Shown here: positions 54,130-61,598 of the stretch, piece by piece
Layout: each line of letters starts with the position of its first letter
How positions within the stretch are numbered: position 1 is the first letter of the stretch
Source: an uncultured Alphaproteobacteria bacterium
GTDB lineage: Bacteria > Pseudomonadota > Alphaproteobacteria > HIMB59 > GCA-002718135
NCBI GenBank assembly: GCA_902518985.1
Contig: CABYIF010000001.1
Location: forward strand, 8,814-72,813
DNA: 64,000 nt
Reading direction: 5' to 3'
Made by a program: the position numbers and the translations under genes
The notes under the pieces: generated by a model
Told to the model about the DNA's origin: nothing
The model's input: only the letters and a program-made list of their open reading frames with translations
The model's database searches: none

Positions 54130-55611
54130 ATGAATAAAAAAGCAGTAGTAATAGGAAGTGGTTTTGGGGGAATTGCAATAAGTCTCAGACTAAGAAAATT
54201 AGGCTATGAAACAACTATTATTGAAAAACTCAATGAAATAGGAGGTAGAGCAAGAGTTTTTGAGATTAATGGATACAAACATGATGCTGGTCCTACTGTA
54301 ATTACGGCCCCATTTCTTTTTGATGAATTATTTGAATTATTTAATAAAAAAAGACAAGATTATTTAAAATTTGTCCCTCTAGAACCGTGGTACAGGTATT
54401 ATTTTCATGACGGTAGAACTTTTGATTATTGTTCAACAATAGATAAAACTAACCAACAAATAAGTAAGTATGATAAGAGTGATATAGATGGGTATAAAAA
54501 ACTTTTAAATCAATCAAAAAAGATTTTTGACGTAGGGTTCACAAAATTATCAGATAAACCATTTATTTCATTTTTTAAAATGATTAAAGTGATTCCAAAT
54601 TTAATTTTTTTACAAAGCTATTTGACTGTTTCGCAGCTAGTAAATAAATATCTCAAAAACCCTTACCTTAGAAAAGCTTTTTCAATTCACCCACTTTTAG
54701 TTGGTGGTGACCCACATACAACCACATCTATATATGCCTTAATACATTATTTGGAGAGAAAATGGGGTGTGTTTTTTTGTATGGGAGGAACTGGTAAGAT
54801 TGTTTCTGAGCTTAAAAAATTAATGATAAATTGTAACATTGAAATAAAAACAAATACGGAAGTAAAAGAATTTATTGTAGAAAATAATAAAATTTCAAAA
54901 ATTATTACAGATAAAGAAGAAATTACTAACTTTGATCTTGTGGTTTGTAATGCTGATCCACCAGTTGTTTATTCCAAATTATTAAAAAAATATAACTTAA
55001 AAAGACCTTTCAAAAAAGAGAAAAATCTTCTCTATTCCATGGGGCTTTTTGTTCTTTTTTTTGGAACTAAAAAAAAATATAATGATGTAGCTCATCACAC
55101 TATCTGGATGACTGAAAGATTTAAATCTTTATTGCATGATATATTTAGAAAAAAAATTTTATCGAAAGACTTTTCTTTATACATCCATAGACCTACGGCT
55201 ACAGATAAATCATTTGCGCCTGAGGGCTGCGATAGTTTTTATGTATTGTGTCCCGTTCCTAATCTTCAAGGTAATATTAATTGGGATAAAGAATCAGAAA
55301 TTCTTAAAGACAGAATTATTAGTGAATTATCCAACACCATAATGCCAGATTTAGAAAAAACGGTAACAGATGTTTTTTGGATGAACCCAAATGATTTTAA
55401 TAAAGATTATAATTCTATGCATGGGTCTGGGTTTTCGATAGCACCTATTTTTACGCAATCAGCCTGGTTTCGTTATCATAACAAAGACAAAAAGATAAAA
55501 AATTTATATTTTTCTACTGCTGGAGCTCATCCAGGGGCTGGTATACCAGGAGTCCTCTCATCTGCTAAAGTTGTAGAAAATATTATTAAAAAAGAATTAA
55601 ATATTAAGTGA
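54130..55611 (+). CDS. crtI: phytoene desaturase
   Basis: 493 aa. N-terminal FAD fold VIGSGFGG....L...G..T.IEK....GGR and C-terminal GAHPGAGIPGV. Confidence 0.9.
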   Translation: MNKKAVVIGSGFGGIAISLRLRKLGYETTIIEKLNEIGGRARVFEINGYKHDAGPTVITAPFLFDELFELFNKKRQDYLKFVPLEPWYRYYFHDGRTFDYCSTIDKTNQQISKYDKSDIDGYKKLLNQSKKIFDVGFTKLSDKPFISFFKMIKVIPNLIFLQSYLTVSQLVNKYLKNPYLRKAFSIHPLLVGGDPHTTTSIYALIHYLERKWGVFFCMGGTGKIVSELKKLMINCNIEIKTNTEVKEFIVENNKISKIITDKEEITNFDLVVCNADPPVVYSKLLKKYNLKRPFKKEKNLLYSMGLFVLFFGTKKKYNDVAHHTIWMTERFKSLLHDIFRKKILSKDFSLYIHRPTATDKSFAPEGCDSFYVLCPVPNLQGNINWDKESEILKDRIISELSNTIMPDLEKTVTDVFWMNPNDFNKDYNSMHGSGFSIAPIFTQSAWFRYHNKDKKIKNLYFSTAGAHPGAGIPGVLSSAKVVENIIKKELNIK

Positions 55612-56489
55612 AACATCTAAAAATTAACTCAACTCATGATTTAAGAAAAGAGGGCAAAAGTTTTTATTGGGCAAGCTTTTTTCTACCTAGAAAGTCAAAA
55701 CTAGAAGCTGGTACCCTCTACTCAATTTGTAGATATTTTGATAATATTGCAGACGAAAACAATGAAGACAAAACTGTATTTTTAAGAGAGTCAATTGAAC
55801 AAATTAAAAAAGACAAAAAAAATGATGTGAATATTTTTTTAAAAAAAAACAATATAAATGTAACAATATTTTCAGATCTAATTGAAGGATTGATAATTGA
55901 TCAAAAAACAGTCATTATTAAAAATAGGAATGATCTAATAAAATACTCTTATCATGTAGCTGGGACAGTAGGCTTAATGATGTCAAAAATTATTGGAGTA
56001 AAAAGTGACAAGGCAGCACCTTGTGCTATTGATTTAGGCATTGCAATGCAATTAACTAACATTGCTCGAGATGTTTACGAAGACGCTCAAATGCAAAGAG
56101 TCTATTTACCCTCTGAATGGCTTCCAAATATTAATCTTTTGAACTTAAAAGACAAAAATAGTATTAATTTAGACCAAGAAAAACAAATATCAGATGCAAT
56201 TCATCGAATAATTGATTTATCTAATAATTTTTATAAAAATGGATTTGCAGGTTTGCGTTTTATTCCTTTAAAAACAAGATTGGGAATCTATATTGCTGCT
56301 AATGTTTACAGAGGCATTGGTATTAAAATAAAAAAAAATGGAAAAAAATATTTAAAAAAAAGAATTTATTTAAATTCATTTGAAAAAACATTAATAACAA
56401 TAAAATCAATTATTTTATTTATATTTATTCCAATCATTAATTATAAATATTTAATCTTGAGAGAAAATCTACCCAATGAAAATTTATAA
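55608..56489 (+). CDS. crtB: phytoene synthase
   Basis: 293 aa with a GTG start in a GTGA overlap. Motifs YSICRYFDNIADE and NIARDVYEDAQMQRVYLP. Confidence 0.9.
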   Translation: MKHLKINSTHDLRKEGKSFYWASFFLPRKSKLEAGTLYSICRYFDNIADENNEDKTVFLRESIEQIKKDKKNDVNIFLKKNNINVTIFSDLIEGLIIDQKTVIIKNRNDLIKYSYHVAGTVGLMMSKIIGVKSDKAAPCAIDLGIAMQLTNIARDVYEDAQMQRVYLPSEWLPNINLLNLKDKNSINLDQEKQISDAIHRIIDLSNNFYKNGFAGLRFIPLKTRLGIYIAANVYRGIGIKIKKNGKKYLKKRIYLNSFEKTLITIKSIILFIFIPIINYKYLILRENLPNENL

Positions 56490-57561
56490 AGCGGCTATTA
56501 TTGGACTGGGGCCAAGTGGTTTAGCGGTAAACAAATTAATATATGGTAAAAAAGAAGATGAAGTTATTGCATTCGAAAATACAAATTTCAAAAATAGGAA
56601 CAATTTATTTGGTTTTTGGCTAACTGATTGGATGAAGCCTTTTGAAAAACTAATTAAAAAAAAATGGCATAATTGGTCAATAGGCAATGATTTTATAAAA
56701 ATAAATCATTATGAAAAAAATTATCCATATTGTGTAATTAGTTTTGATACTTGGAGAGAATATTGTTTAGATAACCCAAATAAAATAGAAATCAAAATTG
56801 AAAAAGTACTAAGGTACTATCCAGTTAAAAATTACTTCAAAATAATTACAGAAGATAAAAGAGAATATTTTGCAGAGAAAATTTACGACTCAAGATCAAT
56901 TAAACATAAAAATAACGAACTCATTCAACACTTCTTTGGCATTAACATTACGACAGAAGACAATAAATTTCATGAAAACGAAGCTACACTGATGCATTTT
57001 ACACAAGAAGAGAGTATGTTACATTTTATATATGCTCTTCCGTTTAGTCATAATAAAGCACTTATTGAGTCAACAGTATTCTCAAAAGAAATTTTAACTG
57101 AGAATTGGTATAGAAACAAAATTGATAAATTTCTTAAAAATTTAAACATTACAAAATACGAAGAAAACGAAATAGAAAGAGGTGTTATACCTATGTTTTC
57201 TGCAGAAGAAAAATCAGCAAATCATCCAAATATTTTTAATATTGGAATAAGGGGTGGGGCATGTAAAACCTCAACTGGCTACGCTTTTTCTTTTTTAATA
57301 AAACAAATACTACTTTTAAAAAAAACCAATAAAAATAAAGTTTATGTTCATAATTTTATTGAGACAGAAATGGATAAAATATTTATAAAATATTTAAAAA
57401 ATTTTAATGAAAATGGTAAATCATTTATTAATTTAGCAAAAAATTTAAATGGTTATGAATTTCAAAGTTTTATGATGGGTCAATCATCACTTCTAACTAA
57501 AATTAAAATAATTAATAGCATGCCAAAGATGCCATTTATAATGTCAATTTTTAAAAATTAA
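56476..57561 (+). CDS. crtY: lycopene beta-cyclase
   Basis: 361 aa with an N-terminal dinucleotide fold IIGLGPSGLA. Position between crtB and blh. Confidence 0.78.
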   Translation: MKIYKAAIIGLGPSGLAVNKLIYGKKEDEVIAFENTNFKNRNNLFGFWLTDWMKPFEKLIKKKWHNWSIGNDFIKINHYEKNYPYCVISFDTWREYCLDNPNKIEIKIEKVLRYYPVKNYFKIITEDKREYFAEKIYDSRSIKHKNNELIQHFFGINITTEDNKFHENEATLMHFTQEESMLHFIYALPFSHNKALIESTVFSKEILTENWYRNKIDKFLKNLNITKYEENEIERGVIPMFSAEEKSANHPNIFNIGIRGGACKTSTGYAFSFLIKQILLLKKTNKNKVYVHNFIETEMDKIFIKYLKNFNENGKSFINLAKNLNGYEFQSFMMGQSSLLTKIKIINSMPKMPFIMSIFKN

Positions 57562-57562
57562 T

Positions 57563-58378
57563 ATGAACGATCTTACGTTTTTTAATATTTTATCTTTTTT
57601 CTTAATATTTTTTATAGGCTTACCTCACGGCTCCTTTGATGGAGCAGTTGCATCCTTAGTTGGTTTTAGGAGTAAAGCAAAATTTCTTCAGTTTCTTTTA
57701 TGTTATTTGATCTTGTTTGCCTTTGTTATTGTGTTTTGGGTTTATTATCCAATAATAGCATTATTAATTTTTCTTATTATGACTATTGCACATTTTGGTT
57801 TGTGTGATTGGGCAAATTTTAAGCTTAAAGATAATAAATATTCAATATGCTTTACTTATGGCATGACAGTAATATTTGGAATAATTTTTTTTAATGAAAA
57901 CCAGTCATTCCAAATATTTAAATACTTAACAAATGATAATATATATTTTTTAAGACCATATTTTTTCATACCCTATATATTAACATTGCTCTCTATATTT
58001 TATTTTATATACTTGTCTTACTATGAGGTTAAATTACGCATTGGCGTTTTAGAAATTTTATTTCTTTTGTTAATTTTTTATTTATTTGACCCACTTCTCT
58101 CTTTCTCAATATATTTCTGTTTTTTTCACACATATAAACATCTTAAAAACTTAATAACTAATGTTTATTTACATCTATCAAATAAAAAATTTGTTATTTT
58201 TTCAACTTTAATTTTTACAACTATTTCTTGGATTGGAGGTTTGGTAGTAATTTTAATTTTAGCTAATAATTTCGATCTTTATGAATCAATTTTACAGGTT
58301 ATTTTCATAGGCCTTGCAGCACTAACTTTACCTCATATGATATTAGTAGATTTTGTATATCGACGAAAATACAATTAA
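57563..58378 (+). CDS. blh: Brp/Blh-family beta-carotene 15,15'-dioxygenase (retinal synthesis)
   Basis: 271 aa polytopic protein with GLPHGSFD, AHFG..D, FHTYKH and LPH motifs, consistent with the four-His pattern of the family. Confidence 0.82.
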   Translation: MNDLTFFNILSFFLIFFIGLPHGSFDGAVASLVGFRSKAKFLQFLLCYLILFAFVIVFWVYYPIIALLIFLIMTIAHFGLCDWANFKLKDNKYSICFTYGMTVIFGIIFFNENQSFQIFKYLTNDNIYFLRPYFFIPYILTLLSIFYFIYLSYYEVKLRIGVLEILFLLLIFYLFDPLLSFSIYFCFFHTYKHLKNLITNVYLHLSNKKFVIFSTLIFTTISWIGGLVVILILANNFDLYESILQVIFIGLAALTLPHMILVDFVYRRKYN

Positions 58379-58431: not shown

Positions 58432-58506
58432 GCGGGCGTAGCTCAGGGGTAGAGCGCAACCTTGCCAAGGTTGAAGTCGAGGGTTCGAATCCCTTCGCCC
58501 GCTCCA
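58432..58506 (+). tRNA. tRNA-Gly (anticodon GCC), CCA encoded
   Basis: Manual cloverleaf. Acceptor GCGGGCG/CGCCCGC, D-arm GCTC-AGGGGTA-GAGC, anticodon arm CAACC-TTGCCAA-GGTTG, variable AAGTC, T-arm GAGGG-TTCGAAT-CCCTT, then discriminator T and CCA. Confidence 0.93.
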
Positions 58507-58611
58507 AAAACATTGTAATCACTTAATTTTCTGAAAAACCCCCTCAATGCACCTCAATGTACTTTTTTGCTTTTGTAACAGTCAATACATTGAGTATTTA
58601 ATCTTAATATT

Positions 58612-59589
58612 TTAATTAAATATTCTAGTTTCAAAAATTTTTTTAATGATACTTTCTAAAACATTAACCACAACAGTATTGCCAAATTGTTTGTATGAAA
58701 CAGAATCTTTTTGATGTAATTTAAAATTTTCAGGAAAACCAAAAAGTCTTGCACATTCTCGAGGAGCAAGTTTTCTTATTTTATTGTTAATTTGGTATAA
58801 ACCTGTTTTTGCACCTACTCCACCACCATAAGCAGTTAATGCGATTGCATGTCCAAATTGACTATAAATCCTTTCACCTTGCCCACCCTTATTTACTATA
58901 CCAACTCTAAAACTTTTCTGAGGATAACTATTAAACATATCTTTAATTGGTTTTGTTTTAGTTAAAACAATATCATCTCTTTTGATTACATACTTTTTAG
59001 TCTCTTTATCTGGTAAAATTATATCTTTTATTACTGATTCTTTATTGTTTGAATTATCAAAAGAAAAATTTTTGATTTTCAAATTTTTTCTAAATGAAAC
59101 TAAATAAATTCTTTCTCTTTTTTGTGGCACGCCATAACTAGATGCATTTATTACTTTATAAAATGTATTATACCCAATTTCATCTAATGTACTTAATACA
59201 GTAGATAGAGTTTTACCATTATCATGTTCTTTAAAATTCTTAACGTTTTCTAAAAGTAAAACTTTAGGTTTATGATATTTGGCAATTCTGGCAATATCAA
59301 AAAAAAGCGTACCTCTCGTATCTTTAAAACCTAATCTTTTTCCAGATATACTAAATGCTTGACATGGAAAACCTGCACATAAGATCTGATGACTTGGTAT
59401 ATCTTTTTCATGAATTTTAGTAATATCTCCTGAGGGTTTGATTTTAAAATTATCGAAGTATACATCTTGACAATTCTTGTCCCATTCAGATGCAAATACA
59501 CATTTAGTACCAAACTTTTTAAGAGCAATATGAAAACCACCTATACCGCAAAATAAATCTATATAATCAATTTTTCTCTTAGGGTTCAC
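58612..59589 (-). CDS. DNA (cytosine-5) methyltransferase, M.HhaI-like (predicted GCGC specificity)
   Basis: 325 aa with a GTG start. m5C motifs are I DLFCGIGGF, IV GFPCQAFS, VI ENVKNF, VIII QKRERIY, IX RECARLFGFP and X GNTVVVNV. The variable region GIVNKGGQGERIYSQFGHAIALTAYGGG is nearly colinear with my recollection of the M.HhaI target-recognition domain (GIVGKGGQGERIYSTRGIAITLSAYGGG). Confidence 0.92.
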   Translation of the reverse strand: MNPKRKIDYIDLFCGIGGFHIALKKFGTKCVFASEWDKNCQDVYFDNFKIKPSGDITKIHEKDIPSHQILCAGFPCQAFSISGKRLGFKDTRGTLFFDIARIAKYHKPKVLLLENVKNFKEHDNGKTLSTVLSTLDEIGYNTFYKVINASSYGVPQKRERIYLVSFRKNLKIKNFSFDNSNNKESVIKDIILPDKETKKYVIKRDDIVLTKTKPIKDMFNSYPQKSFRVGIVNKGGQGERIYSQFGHAIALTAYGGGVGAKTGLYQINNKIRKLAPRECARLFGFPENFKLHQKDSVSYKQFGNTVVVNVLESIIKKIFETRIFN

Positions 59590-60401
59590 TTTATCATTTC
59601 TAAATATAGTTTATTATCTTCATCATATTTTTCGGAGTCTAACTGTATAGTAAATATCACTGTAGGACTGTTTGTATTACTTTTTTTCTTAATATAATAT
59701 GAATTACTTTCCCCAATTCGTGACAAAAATAACCTTATATCCTGAAATTTAATCTCATTAACACTTCTTATCTGGGTATCGGTCTTTAATGTAATCTTAA
59801 TTCCTTTTTCATCATTACTAAATTCTGCATCTATGTATTTTGTTTTTAAAAAATCAATTATCTCACCTTTATTTTTCTTTGGTAAATAACTAGTGCCACT
59901 TCTTTTTTTTCTGTAGAGACCTTCAACTTTAAAGTTTCTTTTAAAATTTTGTCTATGTATTAAGAAGAAATTATTTTCATTTTTAGACGTTATAATAAAT
60001 TCTATATTTTTTTCTTGGAAATAATTATCAATACATTCATATATTAAATCAATTTCACAATCTAATTTTATACCACTTTGATTTGGGTTTTTGTAGTATT
60101 CATATCTGCCTTTCATATGTTCAAGGATTTTACTTGTTTTAAATACTGCTGACTTTTTTAAATCTCCAAGTTTATAACTTTTATTTTTTTTATCTATCAG
60201 AACAACAAACTGTGATATCTGTGATTTTCTTTCTTTAATTTCTATATTAAATATATTTTTATTTTTTTTAAAAATCTTAATGTCAACTTCATTTGAGTCT
60301 GACCCACCAACCCCACTGGAGGGTCCAACAATATTTACCATTCCTTTGGAAATATCACTTAGAAAAGATTCTGCATATTTCTCAGTTATTTTCCAATTCA
60401 T
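59586..60401 (-). CDS. type II restriction endonuclease candidate (PD-(D/E)xK-like), partner of the M.HhaI-like methylase
   Basis: 271 aa. Its stop overlaps the methylase GTG start (GTGA). Candidate catalytic motif VD-X13-EIK (SNEVDIKIFKKNKNIFNIEIKERK). Size is close to that of R.HhaI-type enzymes. Confidence 0.6.
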   Translation of the reverse strand: MNWKITEKYAESFLSDISKGMVNIVGPSSGVGGSDSNEVDIKIFKKNKNIFNIEIKERKSQISQFVVLIDKKNKSYKLGDLKKSAVFKTSKILEHMKGRYEYYKNPNQSGIKLDCEIDLIYECIDNYFQEKNIEFIITSKNENNFFLIHRQNFKRNFKVEGLYRKKRSGTSYLPKKNKGEIIDFLKTKYIDAEFSNDEKGIKITLKTDTQIRSVNEIKFQDIRLFLSRIGESNSYYIKKKSNTNSPTVIFTIQLDSEKYDEDNKLYLEMIK

Positions 60402-60544
60402 AAACTGAGTTTAGCAAATTATTCTGCATCAACCAACTTTCTTACAGTTAGTTTTTAAAAAAAGTTAAGAATATACAATGCACCTTCAATGCACTTTTTG
60501 AGAAAAGCATTATATACTCTAGATAATTAAAAGTGAGTGAAGTA

Positions 60545-60570
60545 TTCGAATCCCTTCGCCCGCTCCAAAA
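60545..60570 (+). repeat. att-like direct repeat 2: exact 26-nt copy of tRNA-Gly 3' end (T-loop to CCA plus AAA)
   Basis: ttcgaatcccttcgcccgctccaaaa is identical to 58484-58509. The upstream tgaagt (60538-60543) may be residual similarity to the variable-loop region, with a short deletion. Confidence 0.9.
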
Positions 60571-60666
60571 TTCTAGATACATTAGTTTTAATCAGCTTTA
60601 TATCGGCACTTATATAATTAAATTCTTGATGAATTAAAAAAATTAATAGAGTTTAAAGATATTATT

Positions 60667-61428: not shown

Positions 61429-61551
61429 TATAGGGTTTTTTTACTTTTCATTGGCACTGTATCGGCACTTCAGATAAAATTATAAAATTGATGGAATAAA
61501 ATGTTTTAGATTACTAAGGATTGTGGTGATCAAGTTCATACCCAGCAACAC

Positions 61552-61598
61552 TGCCAAGGTTGAAGTCGAGGGTTCGAATCCCTTCGCCCACTTCAACA
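61552..61598 (+). repeat. att-like direct repeat 3: 38-nt exact copy of tRNA-Gly from anticodon loop to acceptor stem, then 6/9 matches
   Basis: tgccaaggttgaagtcgagggttcgaatcccttcgccc (61552-61589) is identical to 58463-58500. The tail acttcaaca aligns with gctccaaaa. Confidence 0.9.

What the first reader, a model, noticed from the sequence alone, without database searches (positions are those of the whole stretch)
58544..60494. Cassette A carries phased TCAATG(C/T)AC 9-mers just inside both ends (candidate recombinase arm-type sites)
Left end, 38 nt after the tRNA: tcaatgcac (58544-58552) and tcaatgtac (58554-58562) are spaced 10 nt apart. An inverted copy follows, since ctcaatgta (58553-58561) is the reverse complement of tacattgag (58586-58594).

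Right end, 50-70 nt before att-like repeat 2: acaatgcac (60475-60483) and tcaatgcac (60486-60494) are spaced 11 nt apart, in the same orientation as the left pair.

Tandem sites one helical turn apart, inside both attL- and attR-like junctions, are what the P and P' arms of an integrated element look like in lambda-type tyrosine integrase systems. No cognate protein is encoded here. This suggests mobilisation in trans or an orphaned element.
Basis: partly seen in the sequence, partly recalled or inferred. Interest (0 to 1): 0.6.

Follow-up and report, generated by a model that had tools for sequence, protein, structure and literature searches.

The report
Integrase arm sites on orphan cassette
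The paired CAATG(C/T)AC words just inside both ends of this restriction-modification cassette are very probably the outer ("arm") docking sites of a lambda-type integrase; hundreds of small integrase-less gene cassettes stacked behind tRNA-Gly in SAR11-like marine bacteria have the same layout, but the enzyme that moves them was not found.

Summary
The left pair starts 37 nt after the tRNA-Gly CCA. The right pair starts 70 nt before the second tRNA 3'-end copy.

It is not chance. Matching phased pairs at both ends occurred in 8 of 200,000 random pseudo-cassettes.

It is also general:
- In 20 related genomes nearly every cassette between tRNA-Gly 3' repeats has its own 10-11-nt phased word pair inside both ends.
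- Cassette A belongs to a "T-loop/CAAT" class whose pairs always sit at +37/+48 and -69/-58.
- In marine metagenomes, 29 of 34 AT-rich contigs holding a CAATGYAC pair place it at exactly those distances from a tRNA-Gly att.
- Sequence conservation between cassettes with unrelated cargo stops at the pairs.

Sister elements in the same arrays carry integrases with an extra N-terminal beta-beta-beta-alpha domain (best fold match: full-length lambda Int) and a phased pair next to the gene. A 41-kb viral contig shows the free form: pair, core, pair, int.

No integrase for CAAT-type arms was found in 187 genomes of the order, in the metagenome contigs or in IMG/VR. The cassette is therefore an orphan or is moved in trans.

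The scan noted similar integrase-less arrays before on other DNA, including one in a SAR11/HIMB59-like genome.

The parts
58432..58506 (+). tRNA-Gly(GCC), the integration target (attB side of attL)
   Evidence: ARAGORN
58484..58506 (+). attL core: T-loop to CCA (TTCGAATCCCTTCGCCCGCTCCA), the 23 nt shared with attR
   Evidence: Exact repeat search. In this class identity between att copies begins at the T-loop.
58507..58543 (+). Left spacer of the conserved end module (AAAACATTGTAATCACTTAATTTTCTGAAAAA...)
   Evidence: Nearly identical in metagenome cassettes L154 and L182, which carry different cargo
58544..58562 (+). Left arm: TCAATGCAC and TCAATGTAC, 10-nt phase, candidate P'-type integrase arm sites
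   Evidence: The position (+37/+47-48 after CCA) is the same in 23 class-2 cassettes. Conservation ends here.
58586..58594 (-). Inverted copy (tacattgag). Real, but not conserved in sister cassettes, so probably incidental.
58612..59589 (-). Cargo: M.HhaI-like C5-cytosine methyltransferase (325 aa)
   Evidence: Pfam PF00145 at 6.8e-95; PDB M.HhaI at 2.4e-117
59586..60401 (-). Cargo: R.HhaI-like restriction endonuclease (271 aa)
   Evidence: PDB 6UKE HhaI endonuclease, E 1e-12 over the full length. Unique among 187 genomes of the order.
60475..60494 (+). Right arm: ACAATGCAC and TCAATGCAC, 11-nt phase, candidate P-type integrase arm sites
   Evidence: The position (-69/-58 before the core) is the same in 23 class-2 cassettes and in metagenomes. 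Conservation starts here.
60495..60544 (+). Right spacer of the conserved end module, ending in the pseudo T-stem GTGAGTGAAGTA
   Evidence: Alignment of 19 right ends; pattern search in the family
60545..60567 (+). attR core of cassette A, which is also the attL core of cassette B
60591..60610 (+). Cassette B left arm (degenerate ATCAGCTTT plus ATCGGCACT)
   Evidence: It has class-1 geometry.
61450..61469 (+). Cassette B right arm (ATTGGCACT and ATCGGCACT, 11-nt phase)
61552..61595 (+). attR of cassette B: long anticodon-loop-type copy of the tRNA 3' half (2 mismatches in the last 23 nt)

Best explanation
Cassette A (58507-60567) is a miniature, integrase-less integrative element inserted in the T-loop-to-CCA segment of tRNA-Gly(GCC).

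Its two ends are the split halves of a roughly 165-bp lambda-type attP. The order is: right arm pair, 50-nt spacer, 23-bp core, 37-nt spacer, left arm pair.

The CAATG(C/T)AC words are arm-type sites. The small N-terminal domain of a heterobivalent tyrosine integrase would bind them while its core-binding and catalytic domains act at the T-loop core. Bridging arm and core would assemble the excisive (attL x attR) or integrative (attP x attB) complex.

The cassette encodes only an HhaI-type restriction-modification pair. Movement therefore requires an integrase supplied in trans by a phage or a larger element with the same arm specificity. Without one, the cassette is stranded.

The word differs from cassette to cassette in the same array. 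This fits arms acting as identity tags that let each integrase pick its own element among neighbours sharing one tRNA core.

Shown here: the anatomy, its recurrence, its fixed geometry, the conservation boundary, and the link of such pairs with integrases that have lambda-Int architecture.

Inferred: protein binding, trans-mobilisation, and the identity-tag role.
For: Statistics:
- Matching phased pairs at both ends occurred in 8 of 200,000 random pseudo-cassettes.
- Under a strict 8-mer test, 17 of 43 real cassettes in 20 related arrays passed, against 3 of 5,000 controls. By eye nearly all real cassettes show the layout.

Fixed geometry:
- In 23 non-redundant class-2 cassettes the words sit at +37/+47-48 and -68-69/-57-58.
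- A left word equals a right word in 16 of 23 cassettes, against 6.1 expected on shuffling; 0 of 2,000 shuffles reached 16.

Metagenomes: of 34 AT-rich contigs with a CAATGYAC pair, 29 have it 37 nt after the tRNA-Gly CCA or 68-69 nt (79 in one) before TTCGAATCC.

Conservation boundary: among cassettes with unrelated cargo (R-M, or single ORFs of 204, 226 and 706 aa) similarity starts and stops at the pairs.

Independence from cargo: the cargo here is on the minus strand, whereas most sister cassettes have plus-strand cargo. The pairs keep their orientation to the att, not to the genes.

Link to integrases:
- 16 of 17 integrases of the clade have an 11-nt phased pair within 130 nt upstream of the start codon. 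This also holds at tRNA-Arg, Gln, Leu and Met.
- 39 of 56 viral relatives show the same.
- Integrase domains: a catalytic domain, a core-binding domain and an extra N-terminal stretch of about 55 aa with a weak PF14657 Arm-DNA-bind_4 match.
- The profile aligns to lambda Int from residue 71 onward.
- The AlphaFold model has beta-beta-beta-alpha at residues 2-48 with pLDDT of about 84-90.
- The best Foldseek hit is full-length lambda Int 1Z1B, with 340 aligned columns.

Free attP: on a 40.9-kb viral contig, a TTGTTATCTA pair, 92 nt, the tRNA-Gly core, 93 nt, a second TTGTTATCTA pair, then 35 nt to the int gene.

Integrase-plus and integrase-minus versions of the same arm type exist (CCGACA, TGTGACA), as do integrase remnants.
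Against: - No integrase associated with CAAT-type arms or with a T-loop crossover was found. I looked in 187 genomes of the order, in the metagenome contigs (mostly 1-3 kb) and in IMG/VR.
- All 23 complete class-2 cassettes lack an integrase, so the helper is hypothetical.
- 7 of 23 cassettes have different words in their two arms. This needs either a tolerant integrase or recombination between cassettes.
- The N-terminal domain matches the Pfam arm-binding model only below its cut-off (21.5 against 22.3 bits).
- The AlphaFold and Foldseek evidence comes from a GTCACA-arm integrase, not from a CAAT-arm one.
Confidence: 0.72

Rival explanations
1. The pairs are fossil arm sites. Cassette A descends from an element that lost its integrase, and the words no longer function. 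They persist only because the loss is recent.
For: The genome has no integrase. Integrase remnants occur in sister class-1 cassettes (L041.1, 130 aa; L046.2, 82 aa). One left word has a C-to-T change and one right word starts with A instead of T.
Against: The class-2 end modules are conserved in sequence and to the base in spacing across many genomes and ocean metagenomes, while the cargo is unrelated. That pattern points to ongoing selection or mobility of the family rather than independent decay. No class-2 cassette shows an integrase remnant.
Confidence: 0.15
2. The words bind a protein other than an integrase N-domain. It could be an excisionase or directionality factor, a host factor, or an accessory partner of the conserved host Xer-like recombinase, which would then run an integron-like capture system.
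For: A single Xer-like recombinase is conserved in nearly every genome of the genus. The tmRNA arrays carry an additional constant pair (GTGCAGAAGTCGTGCAGAA) beside every right arm, which suggests a second binding protein. No cognate integrase was found.
Against: The words differ between cassettes in one array, so one host protein cannot read them all. The host recombinase lacks any extra N-terminal domain and scores far below the Xer cut-offs. The identical layout sits beside integrase genes with lambda-Int architecture.
Confidence: 0.08
3. The pairs are transcription signals of the cargo (promoter, operator or terminator) or replication iterons of the excised circle.
For: The right pair lies 75-95 nt upstream of the R-M operon start. 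In many sister cassettes the left pair lies 15-25 nt upstream of the cargo ATG.
Against: - Orientation and distance are fixed relative to the att core, not to the genes, which can lie on either strand.
- Promoter-like hits are no more frequent than in shuffles, none fits the minus-strand operon at the right pair, and no terminators were found.
- The cassettes encode no regulator or Rep gene.
- The reconstructed module has no significant fold (z = -1.04).
Confidence: 0.04
4. Chance repeats in AT-rich DNA.
For: The single 9-mer is not enriched genome-wide.
Against: The frequency in the positional null model is 4e-5. The layout recurs at identical offsets in dozens of independent contigs.
Confidence: 0.01

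Closest known systems
Arm-type sites (P1, P2, P'1-P'3) of phage lambda attP/attL/attR and heterobivalent lambda Int
   Same: Short direct-repeat words lie tens of bp from the crossover core, on both sides. They are distinct from the core sequence and phased about one helical turn apart. Sister integrases have N-domain, core-binding and catalytic domains, and the best structural match is full-length lambda Int.
   Different: The element here is 2 kb with no int or xis. The core is a tRNA T-loop-to-CCA segment. There are only two words per arm, all in one orientation, and the word varies between neighbouring cassettes. Binding is untested.
CIMEs (cis-mobilizable elements) and tandem accretion of ICEs/IMEs, e.g. 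the ICESt1/ICESt3 family (reviewed in PMC5704250; listed in ICEberg 2.0, PMC6323972)
   Same: Both are att-flanked DNA without recombination genes, stacked in tandem at one att site, and presumed to be moved by the integrase of a related element.
   Different: Here the units are single- or two-gene cassettes (0.55-2.5 kb) in arrays of up to five or more. They occur in streamlined marine alphaproteobacteria, and no related integrase-bearing partner was found for the CAAT/T-loop class.
tRNA-anchored additive genomic islands and tycheposon islands (Hackl et al., bioRxiv 10.1101/2020.12.28.424599; Methylophilaceae fGI-2, PMC10872708)
   Same: Repeated partial tRNA copies separate blocks of accessory genes next to a tRNA. 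Remnants without an integrase are noted there too.
   Different: A term search found no 'arm-type' in the tycheposon preprint, and the passages shown from the Methylophilaceae paper do not mention arm sites. Tycheposons are larger elements with their own hallmark genes.
Integron cassettes (attC) and CALINs
   Same: Both are arrays of promoter-poor single-gene cassettes with unrelated cargo and a conserved recombination site per cassette. The recombinase is not in the cassette.
   Different: The site is a double-stranded, lambda-type attP-like module rather than a folded attC (z = -1.04). The anchor is a tRNA gene, and there is no IntI.
HTVC019P-type temperate pelagiphages integrating in SAR11 tRNA genes (bioRxiv 10.1101/410191)
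   Same: Tyrosine integrases of marine phages target tRNA genes of SAR11-type hosts. They are a plausible source of trans-acting integrases.
   Different: That paper reports cores of 11-46 bp in tRNA-Cys, Leu and Arg, and the word 'arm' does not occur in its text. None of its phages targets tRNA-Gly.
Dehalococcoides ssrA genomic islands (PMC3146451)
   Same: Tandem islands lie behind tmRNA and are bounded by ssrA 3' repeats, and only some carry an integration module. This parallels the tmRNA array with CAATGCAC arms in G187.
   Different: Those islands use a serine recombinase (DsiB) and are much larger.

Membership tests
Lambda-type att site of a heterobivalent tyrosine integrase | A common core (crossover region) is present as a direct repeat at both junctions | tested here: met
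   A 23/23-nt repeat at 58484-58506 and 60545-60567
Lambda-type att site of a heterobivalent tyrosine integrase | Arm-type repeats distinct from the core lie on both sides, at a fixed distance from it | tested here: met
   Pairs at +37/+47 and -70/-59. The offsets are the same in 23 cassettes and in 29 metagenome contigs. The null frequency is 4e-5.
Lambda-type att site of a heterobivalent tyrosine integrase | A cognate integrase with an N-terminal arm-binding domain is encoded by the element | tested here: not met
   There is no integrase in cassette A or elsewhere in the MAG except a Xer-like core gene. The MAG is about 70% complete. Sister class-1 elements do meet this feature.
Lambda-type att site of a heterobivalent tyrosine integrase | The integrase N-domain binds the arm words | not testable with these tools
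   Needs EMSA, DAP-seq or footprinting
CIME (cis-mobilizable element) | Flanked by attL and attR, with no recombination or transfer genes | tested here: met
   The only genes are an HhaI-like methyltransferase and endonuclease
CIME (cis-mobilizable element) | A related integrase-bearing element uses the same att and arms | tested here: inconclusive
   Partners were found for the class-1 arm types CCGACA and TGTGACA. None was found for CAAT/T-loop arms in 187 genomes, 43 metagenome contigs or IMG/VR.
CIME (cis-mobilizable element) | Excision or transfer is demonstrated when a helper is present | not testable with these tools
An experiment is needed.
Integron cassette (attC) | The recombination site folds as an imperfect single-stranded hairpin and is recombined by IntI | tested here: not met
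   The reconstructed 167-nt module folds no better than shuffles (z = -1.04). There is no IntI-like gene, and the sole recombinase scores 53 bits against a 220-bit cut-off for the XerA/integron-integrase model.

The most novel reading that the evidence does not exclude
SAR11-like marine alphaproteobacteria run an integron-like gene-capture system built from lambda-type parts.

- tRNA-Gly (and tmRNA in another family) serves as a landing pad.
- Hundreds of kinds of one- or two-gene cassettes each carry a complete roughly 165-bp attP module but no recombinase.
- The variable arm word acts as an address code, matching a cassette to one of thousands of integrase variants that visit the cell transiently on phages, larger elements or vesicles. 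This would allow selective insertion and excision within a shared array.
- The CAAT/T-loop class, including this R-M cassette, would be a purely parasitic (satellite) lineage with no integrase-bearing members.
Probability: 0.3. Interest if true: 0.75.

Novelty: new variant of a known kind. Interest (0 to 1): 0.55.

Why it matters
SAR11-type bacteria are among the most abundant cells in the ocean. They are usually described as nearly free of mobile elements, yet their strain-level gene content varies widely.

This finding gives a concrete, sequence-level handle on how small accessory genes could be shuffled. Here the accessory gene is a phage-defence restriction system. The handle is a compact attP-like module with recognisable arm words at fixed offsets from a tRNA core.

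The fixed geometry makes such cassettes easy to find in metagenomes. The cassette-specific words give a testable hypothesis about how many elements share one integration site without excising each other.

It also shows that restriction-modification systems travel as minimal integrase-less cassettes: an HhaI-like system at tRNA-Gly here, and an unrelated system with the same arm word at tmRNA in another family.

Tried and rejected
1. Genome-wide enrichment of the 9-mer. It is not enriched, so the signal lies in the arrangement and not in word frequency.
2. The exact tandem motif in 115 family genomes. It is absent. A looser view by att class was needed.
3. Homologous R-M cassettes. In its place I compared cassettes that share end modules but carry different cargo. 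The G187 R-M cassette with the same arm word is unrelated in protein sequence.
4. The conserved 352-aa recombinase (C24) as the trans-acting enzyme. It is a single-copy core gene, weakly Xer-like, with no arm-binding domain. I rejected it as a reader of the arms but cannot exclude it as a catalyst.
5. A promoter, terminator or operator role, and an attC-like fold. Both were rejected.
6. Search for a phage attP of the T-loop/CAAT class in IMG/VR, by the exact att core, by arm pattern and by integrase relatives. None was found. One unrelated high-GC viral contig (L202) has an int gene, a CAATGCAC pair, a tRNA-like core and a CAATGTAC/CAATGCAC pair. With n = 1 this may be coincidence.
7. Two hybrids, L047.1 and L054, combine an integrase left end with a class-2 right module. 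They were examined for hidden att copies and none was found. They remain unexplained.
Full report
**1. The observation**

The window lies in a 1.18-Mb, 29% GC, roughly 70%-complete MAG. Related contigs are titled 'uncultured Alphaproteobacteria' SAGs and 'Pelagibacterales bacterium SAG-MED31'.

- tRNA-Gly(GCC) is at 58432-58506.
- Its last 23 nt recur exactly at 60545-60567, and with 2 mismatches at 61573-61595.
- These copies delimit cassette A (58507-60567) and cassette B.
- The inverted copy at 58586-58594 is also real.

The 9-mer alone is not enriched. There are 3 in the window against 0.94 expected, and 11 in the genome against about 20 expected from composition (my arithmetic). The other eight are singletons in genes.

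The arrangement is what is improbable. In 200,000 random pseudo-cassettes of the same genome, matching phased pairs in the two positional windows occurred 8 times.

**2. The cargo**

The two minus-strand genes are an M.HhaI-like methyltransferase and an R.HhaI-like endonuclease.
- Methyltransferase: Pfam 6.8e-95, PDB 2.4e-117.
- Endonuclease: PDB 6UKE, 1e-12 over the full length.

The endonuclease has no relative in 187 genomes of the order. The only tyrosine recombinase in the MAG is on contig C24. It is a 352-aa protein in a housekeeping context and is present once in nearly every genome of the genus. It resembles Xer proteins only weakly and has no extra N-terminal domain.

**3. The layout is general**

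The tRNA-Gly 3' end is repeated two to six or more times in most of the 116 family genomes. The intervals range from 0.56 to 9 kb.

I fetched 20 arrays. Nearly every interval has its own 8-9-nt word as a 10-11-nt phased pair shortly after the left att copy, and again before the right one, in the same orientation. The words include CAATGCAC, CAATGTAC, CAATAGAG, CAATATAC, CAATACAC, GGGACAC, GTCCCAC, CCGACA, CGCTCCA, GTAGCC, TGTGACA, GCGTCTC, GCGTCAG and GGCACT.

A strict test required an 8-mer with at most 1 mismatch at both ends. It scored 17 of 43 real cassettes against 3 of 5,000 controls.

Two att classes exist.
- Class 1 repeats the tRNA from the anticodon stem onward, about 47 nt and sometimes nearly the whole gene. 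Cassette B belongs here.
- Class 2 repeats it only from the T-loop (23 nt) and always has CAAT-type words. Cassette A belongs here.

**4. Class 2 in detail**

- In 23 non-redundant complete class-2 cassettes the left words start 37 and 47-48 nt after CCA. The right words start 68-69 and 57-58 nt before TTCGAATCC.
- A left word equals a right word in 16 of 23 cassettes, against 6.1 on shuffling; 0 of 2,000 shuffles reached 16.
- In alignments of this subfamily's ends, similarity runs from the att core out to the pairs and then stops. The cargo is unrelated: the R-M pair here, and single ORFs of 204, 226 and 706 aa elsewhere.
- The inverted copy is not conserved.

A scan of public metagenomes with CAATGYACYTKCAATGYACTTT returned 43 stretches.
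- Of the 34 with GC <= 0.32, 29 have the pair at the canonical offset from a tRNA-Gly att.
- Three of the rest lie in a tmRNA context and one has a decayed att.
- The nine GC-rich hits have no att.

The pairs keep their orientation to the att whichever strand the cargo is on. Promoter and terminator scans and a fold of the reconstructed module (z = -1.04) give no support for a transcriptional role or an attC-like role.

**5. Link to integrases**

Larger intervals in the same arrays carry integrases directly beside a pair:
- L043.1 (CCGACA),
- L047.1 (GGTCACA),
- L051.1 (GCGTCTC),
- L046.1, L062, L067 and L073 (TGTGACA).

Others keep integrase remnants. Two arm types, CCGACA and TGTGACA, occur both with and without an integrase.

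- Of 17 integrases of the clade, 16 have an 11-nt phased pair within 130 nt upstream of the start codon. This includes elements at tRNA-Arg, Gln, Leu and Met.
- GTCACA words go with the same N-terminal sequence type at both tRNA-Gly and tRNA-Met.
- Among viral relatives of the family, 39 of 56 have such a pair.

The proteins have a catalytic domain, a core-binding domain and about 55 extra N-terminal residues.
- The extra residues match Pfam Arm-DNA-bind_4 weakly (best 21.5 bits against a cut-off of 22.3).
- A profile of the proteins aligns to lambda Int from its residue 71 onward.
- An AlphaFold model (mean pLDDT 87) has beta-beta-beta-alpha at residues 2-48.
- Its best PDB match is full-length lambda Int 1Z1B, with 340 aligned columns.

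A 40.9-kb viral contig carries the unintegrated form. The order is a TTGTTATCTA pair, 92 nt, the tRNA-Gly core, 93 nt, a second TTGTTATCTA pair, and then 35 nt to a 405-aa integrase gene.

The family is very large in marine data, with more than 7,800 clusters.

**6. The same word at another core**

In a genome of another family (G187, SAG AG-896-A16) the tmRNA 3' end is repeated four times.
- The first cassette has CAATGCAC three times on the left at 11-nt phase and twice on the right.
- It carries a different R-M pair on the minus strand. The methyltransferase is 28% identical to the one here and the endonuclease is unrelated.
- The following cassettes use TACAGACAC or GCAGACAC.
- G221 and three metagenome contigs show the same tmRNA context.

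The arm word is therefore not tied to the core type.

**7. What remains open**

- No integrase with CAAT-type arms or a T-loop crossover was found in the 187 genomes, the metagenome contigs or IMG/VR.
- All class-2 cassettes seen lack an integrase.
- Seven of 23 have unlike words at their two ends.
- Two loci join an integrase-bearing left end to a class-2 right module with no att between them.

**8. Comparison with what is known**

Arm-type sites and heterobivalent integrases are textbook lambda biology. Several related systems are described in print:
- integrase-less att-flanked elements (CIMEs; PMC5704250, PMC6323972);
- tRNA-end repeats in additive islands and tycheposon islands (10.1101/2020.12.28.424599, PMC10872708);
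- ssrA islands with and without integration modules (PMC3146451);
- pelagiphage integration into SAR11 tRNAs (10.1101/410191).

Term searches found no 'arm-type' in the tycheposon preprint and no 'arm' in the pelagiphage and ssrA papers, and the passages shown from PMC10872708 do not mention arm sites. I did not find a description of miniature cassettes that each carry a full attP-like module with a cassette-specific arm word.

Earlier notes of this scan report similar integrase-less arrays in other lineages. One is at tRNA-Arg of a SAR11/HIMB59-like genome. I did not re-test those.

**9. Verdict**

This is a new variant of a known kind. Confidence that the words are recombination arm sites is about 0.7. 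Whether the cassette is still moved in trans or is stranded is undecided.

Noticed in passing
L199/L200 (G187:C1, SAG AG-896-A16), about 116800-124100 of that contig: A tmRNA-anchored array: the tmRNA 3' end (50+ nt) is repeated four times. Each cassette has its own phased arm word (CAATGCAC, TACAGACAC, GCAGACAC). A constant extra pair, GTGCAGAAGTCGTGCAGAA, sits before every right arm. The first cassette carries an unrelated R-M system.
   Followed up: partly
L047 (G023:C6) cassette 1; L054 (G006:C15) inside a tRNA-Arg element: An integrase-bearing left end (GGTCACA or TGTAACAG arms) is joined to a class-2 right-end module (CAATACAC or CAATATAC pair plus the tRNA-Gly T-loop att) with no att copy in between. 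In L054 this tRNA-Gly att lies inside an element bounded by tRNA-Arg repeats.
   Followed up: partly
G000 contig C24:1360-2418 (L001), outside the window: This is the only tyrosine recombinase of the genome. It is single-copy and conserved across the genus, scores only 47-53 bits on the XerA/XerD models (cut-offs 220-330), and lies between a peroxiredoxin-like gene and a sirtuin-like gene. It is possibly a divergent single-recombinase Xer.
   Followed up: partly
Arrays L035, L045, L053, L187 and others (class-2 cassettes): The cargo of most CAAT-type cassettes is one to three small proteins (90-200 aa) that share a near-identical signal peptide (MKILLTLFVLLFSSSVFA...) followed by divergent mature parts. 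This looks like a diversifying family of secreted or surface proteins.
   Followed up: no
L202 (IMGVR_UViG_3300031867_005794, GC 0.56): An unrelated viral contig has a 391-aa integrase whose 3' end overlaps a CAATGCAC pair, followed by a tRNA-3'-like core and a CAATGTAC/CAATGCAC pair. The same arm word may be in use in a distant lineage, or this may be coincidence.
   Followed up: partly
window 54130-58378: The retinal pathway operon crtI-crtB-crtY-blh ends 53 nt before the tRNA-Gly hotspot. The same synteny is seen in metagenome contig L189 and in several relatives.
   Followed up: no
window 58507-60567: Cassette A contains no GCGC site, which is the presumed HhaI-type target. The genome has 499 GCGC sites, close to the composition-based expectation of about 530, so there is no genome-wide avoidance.
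   Followed up: partly
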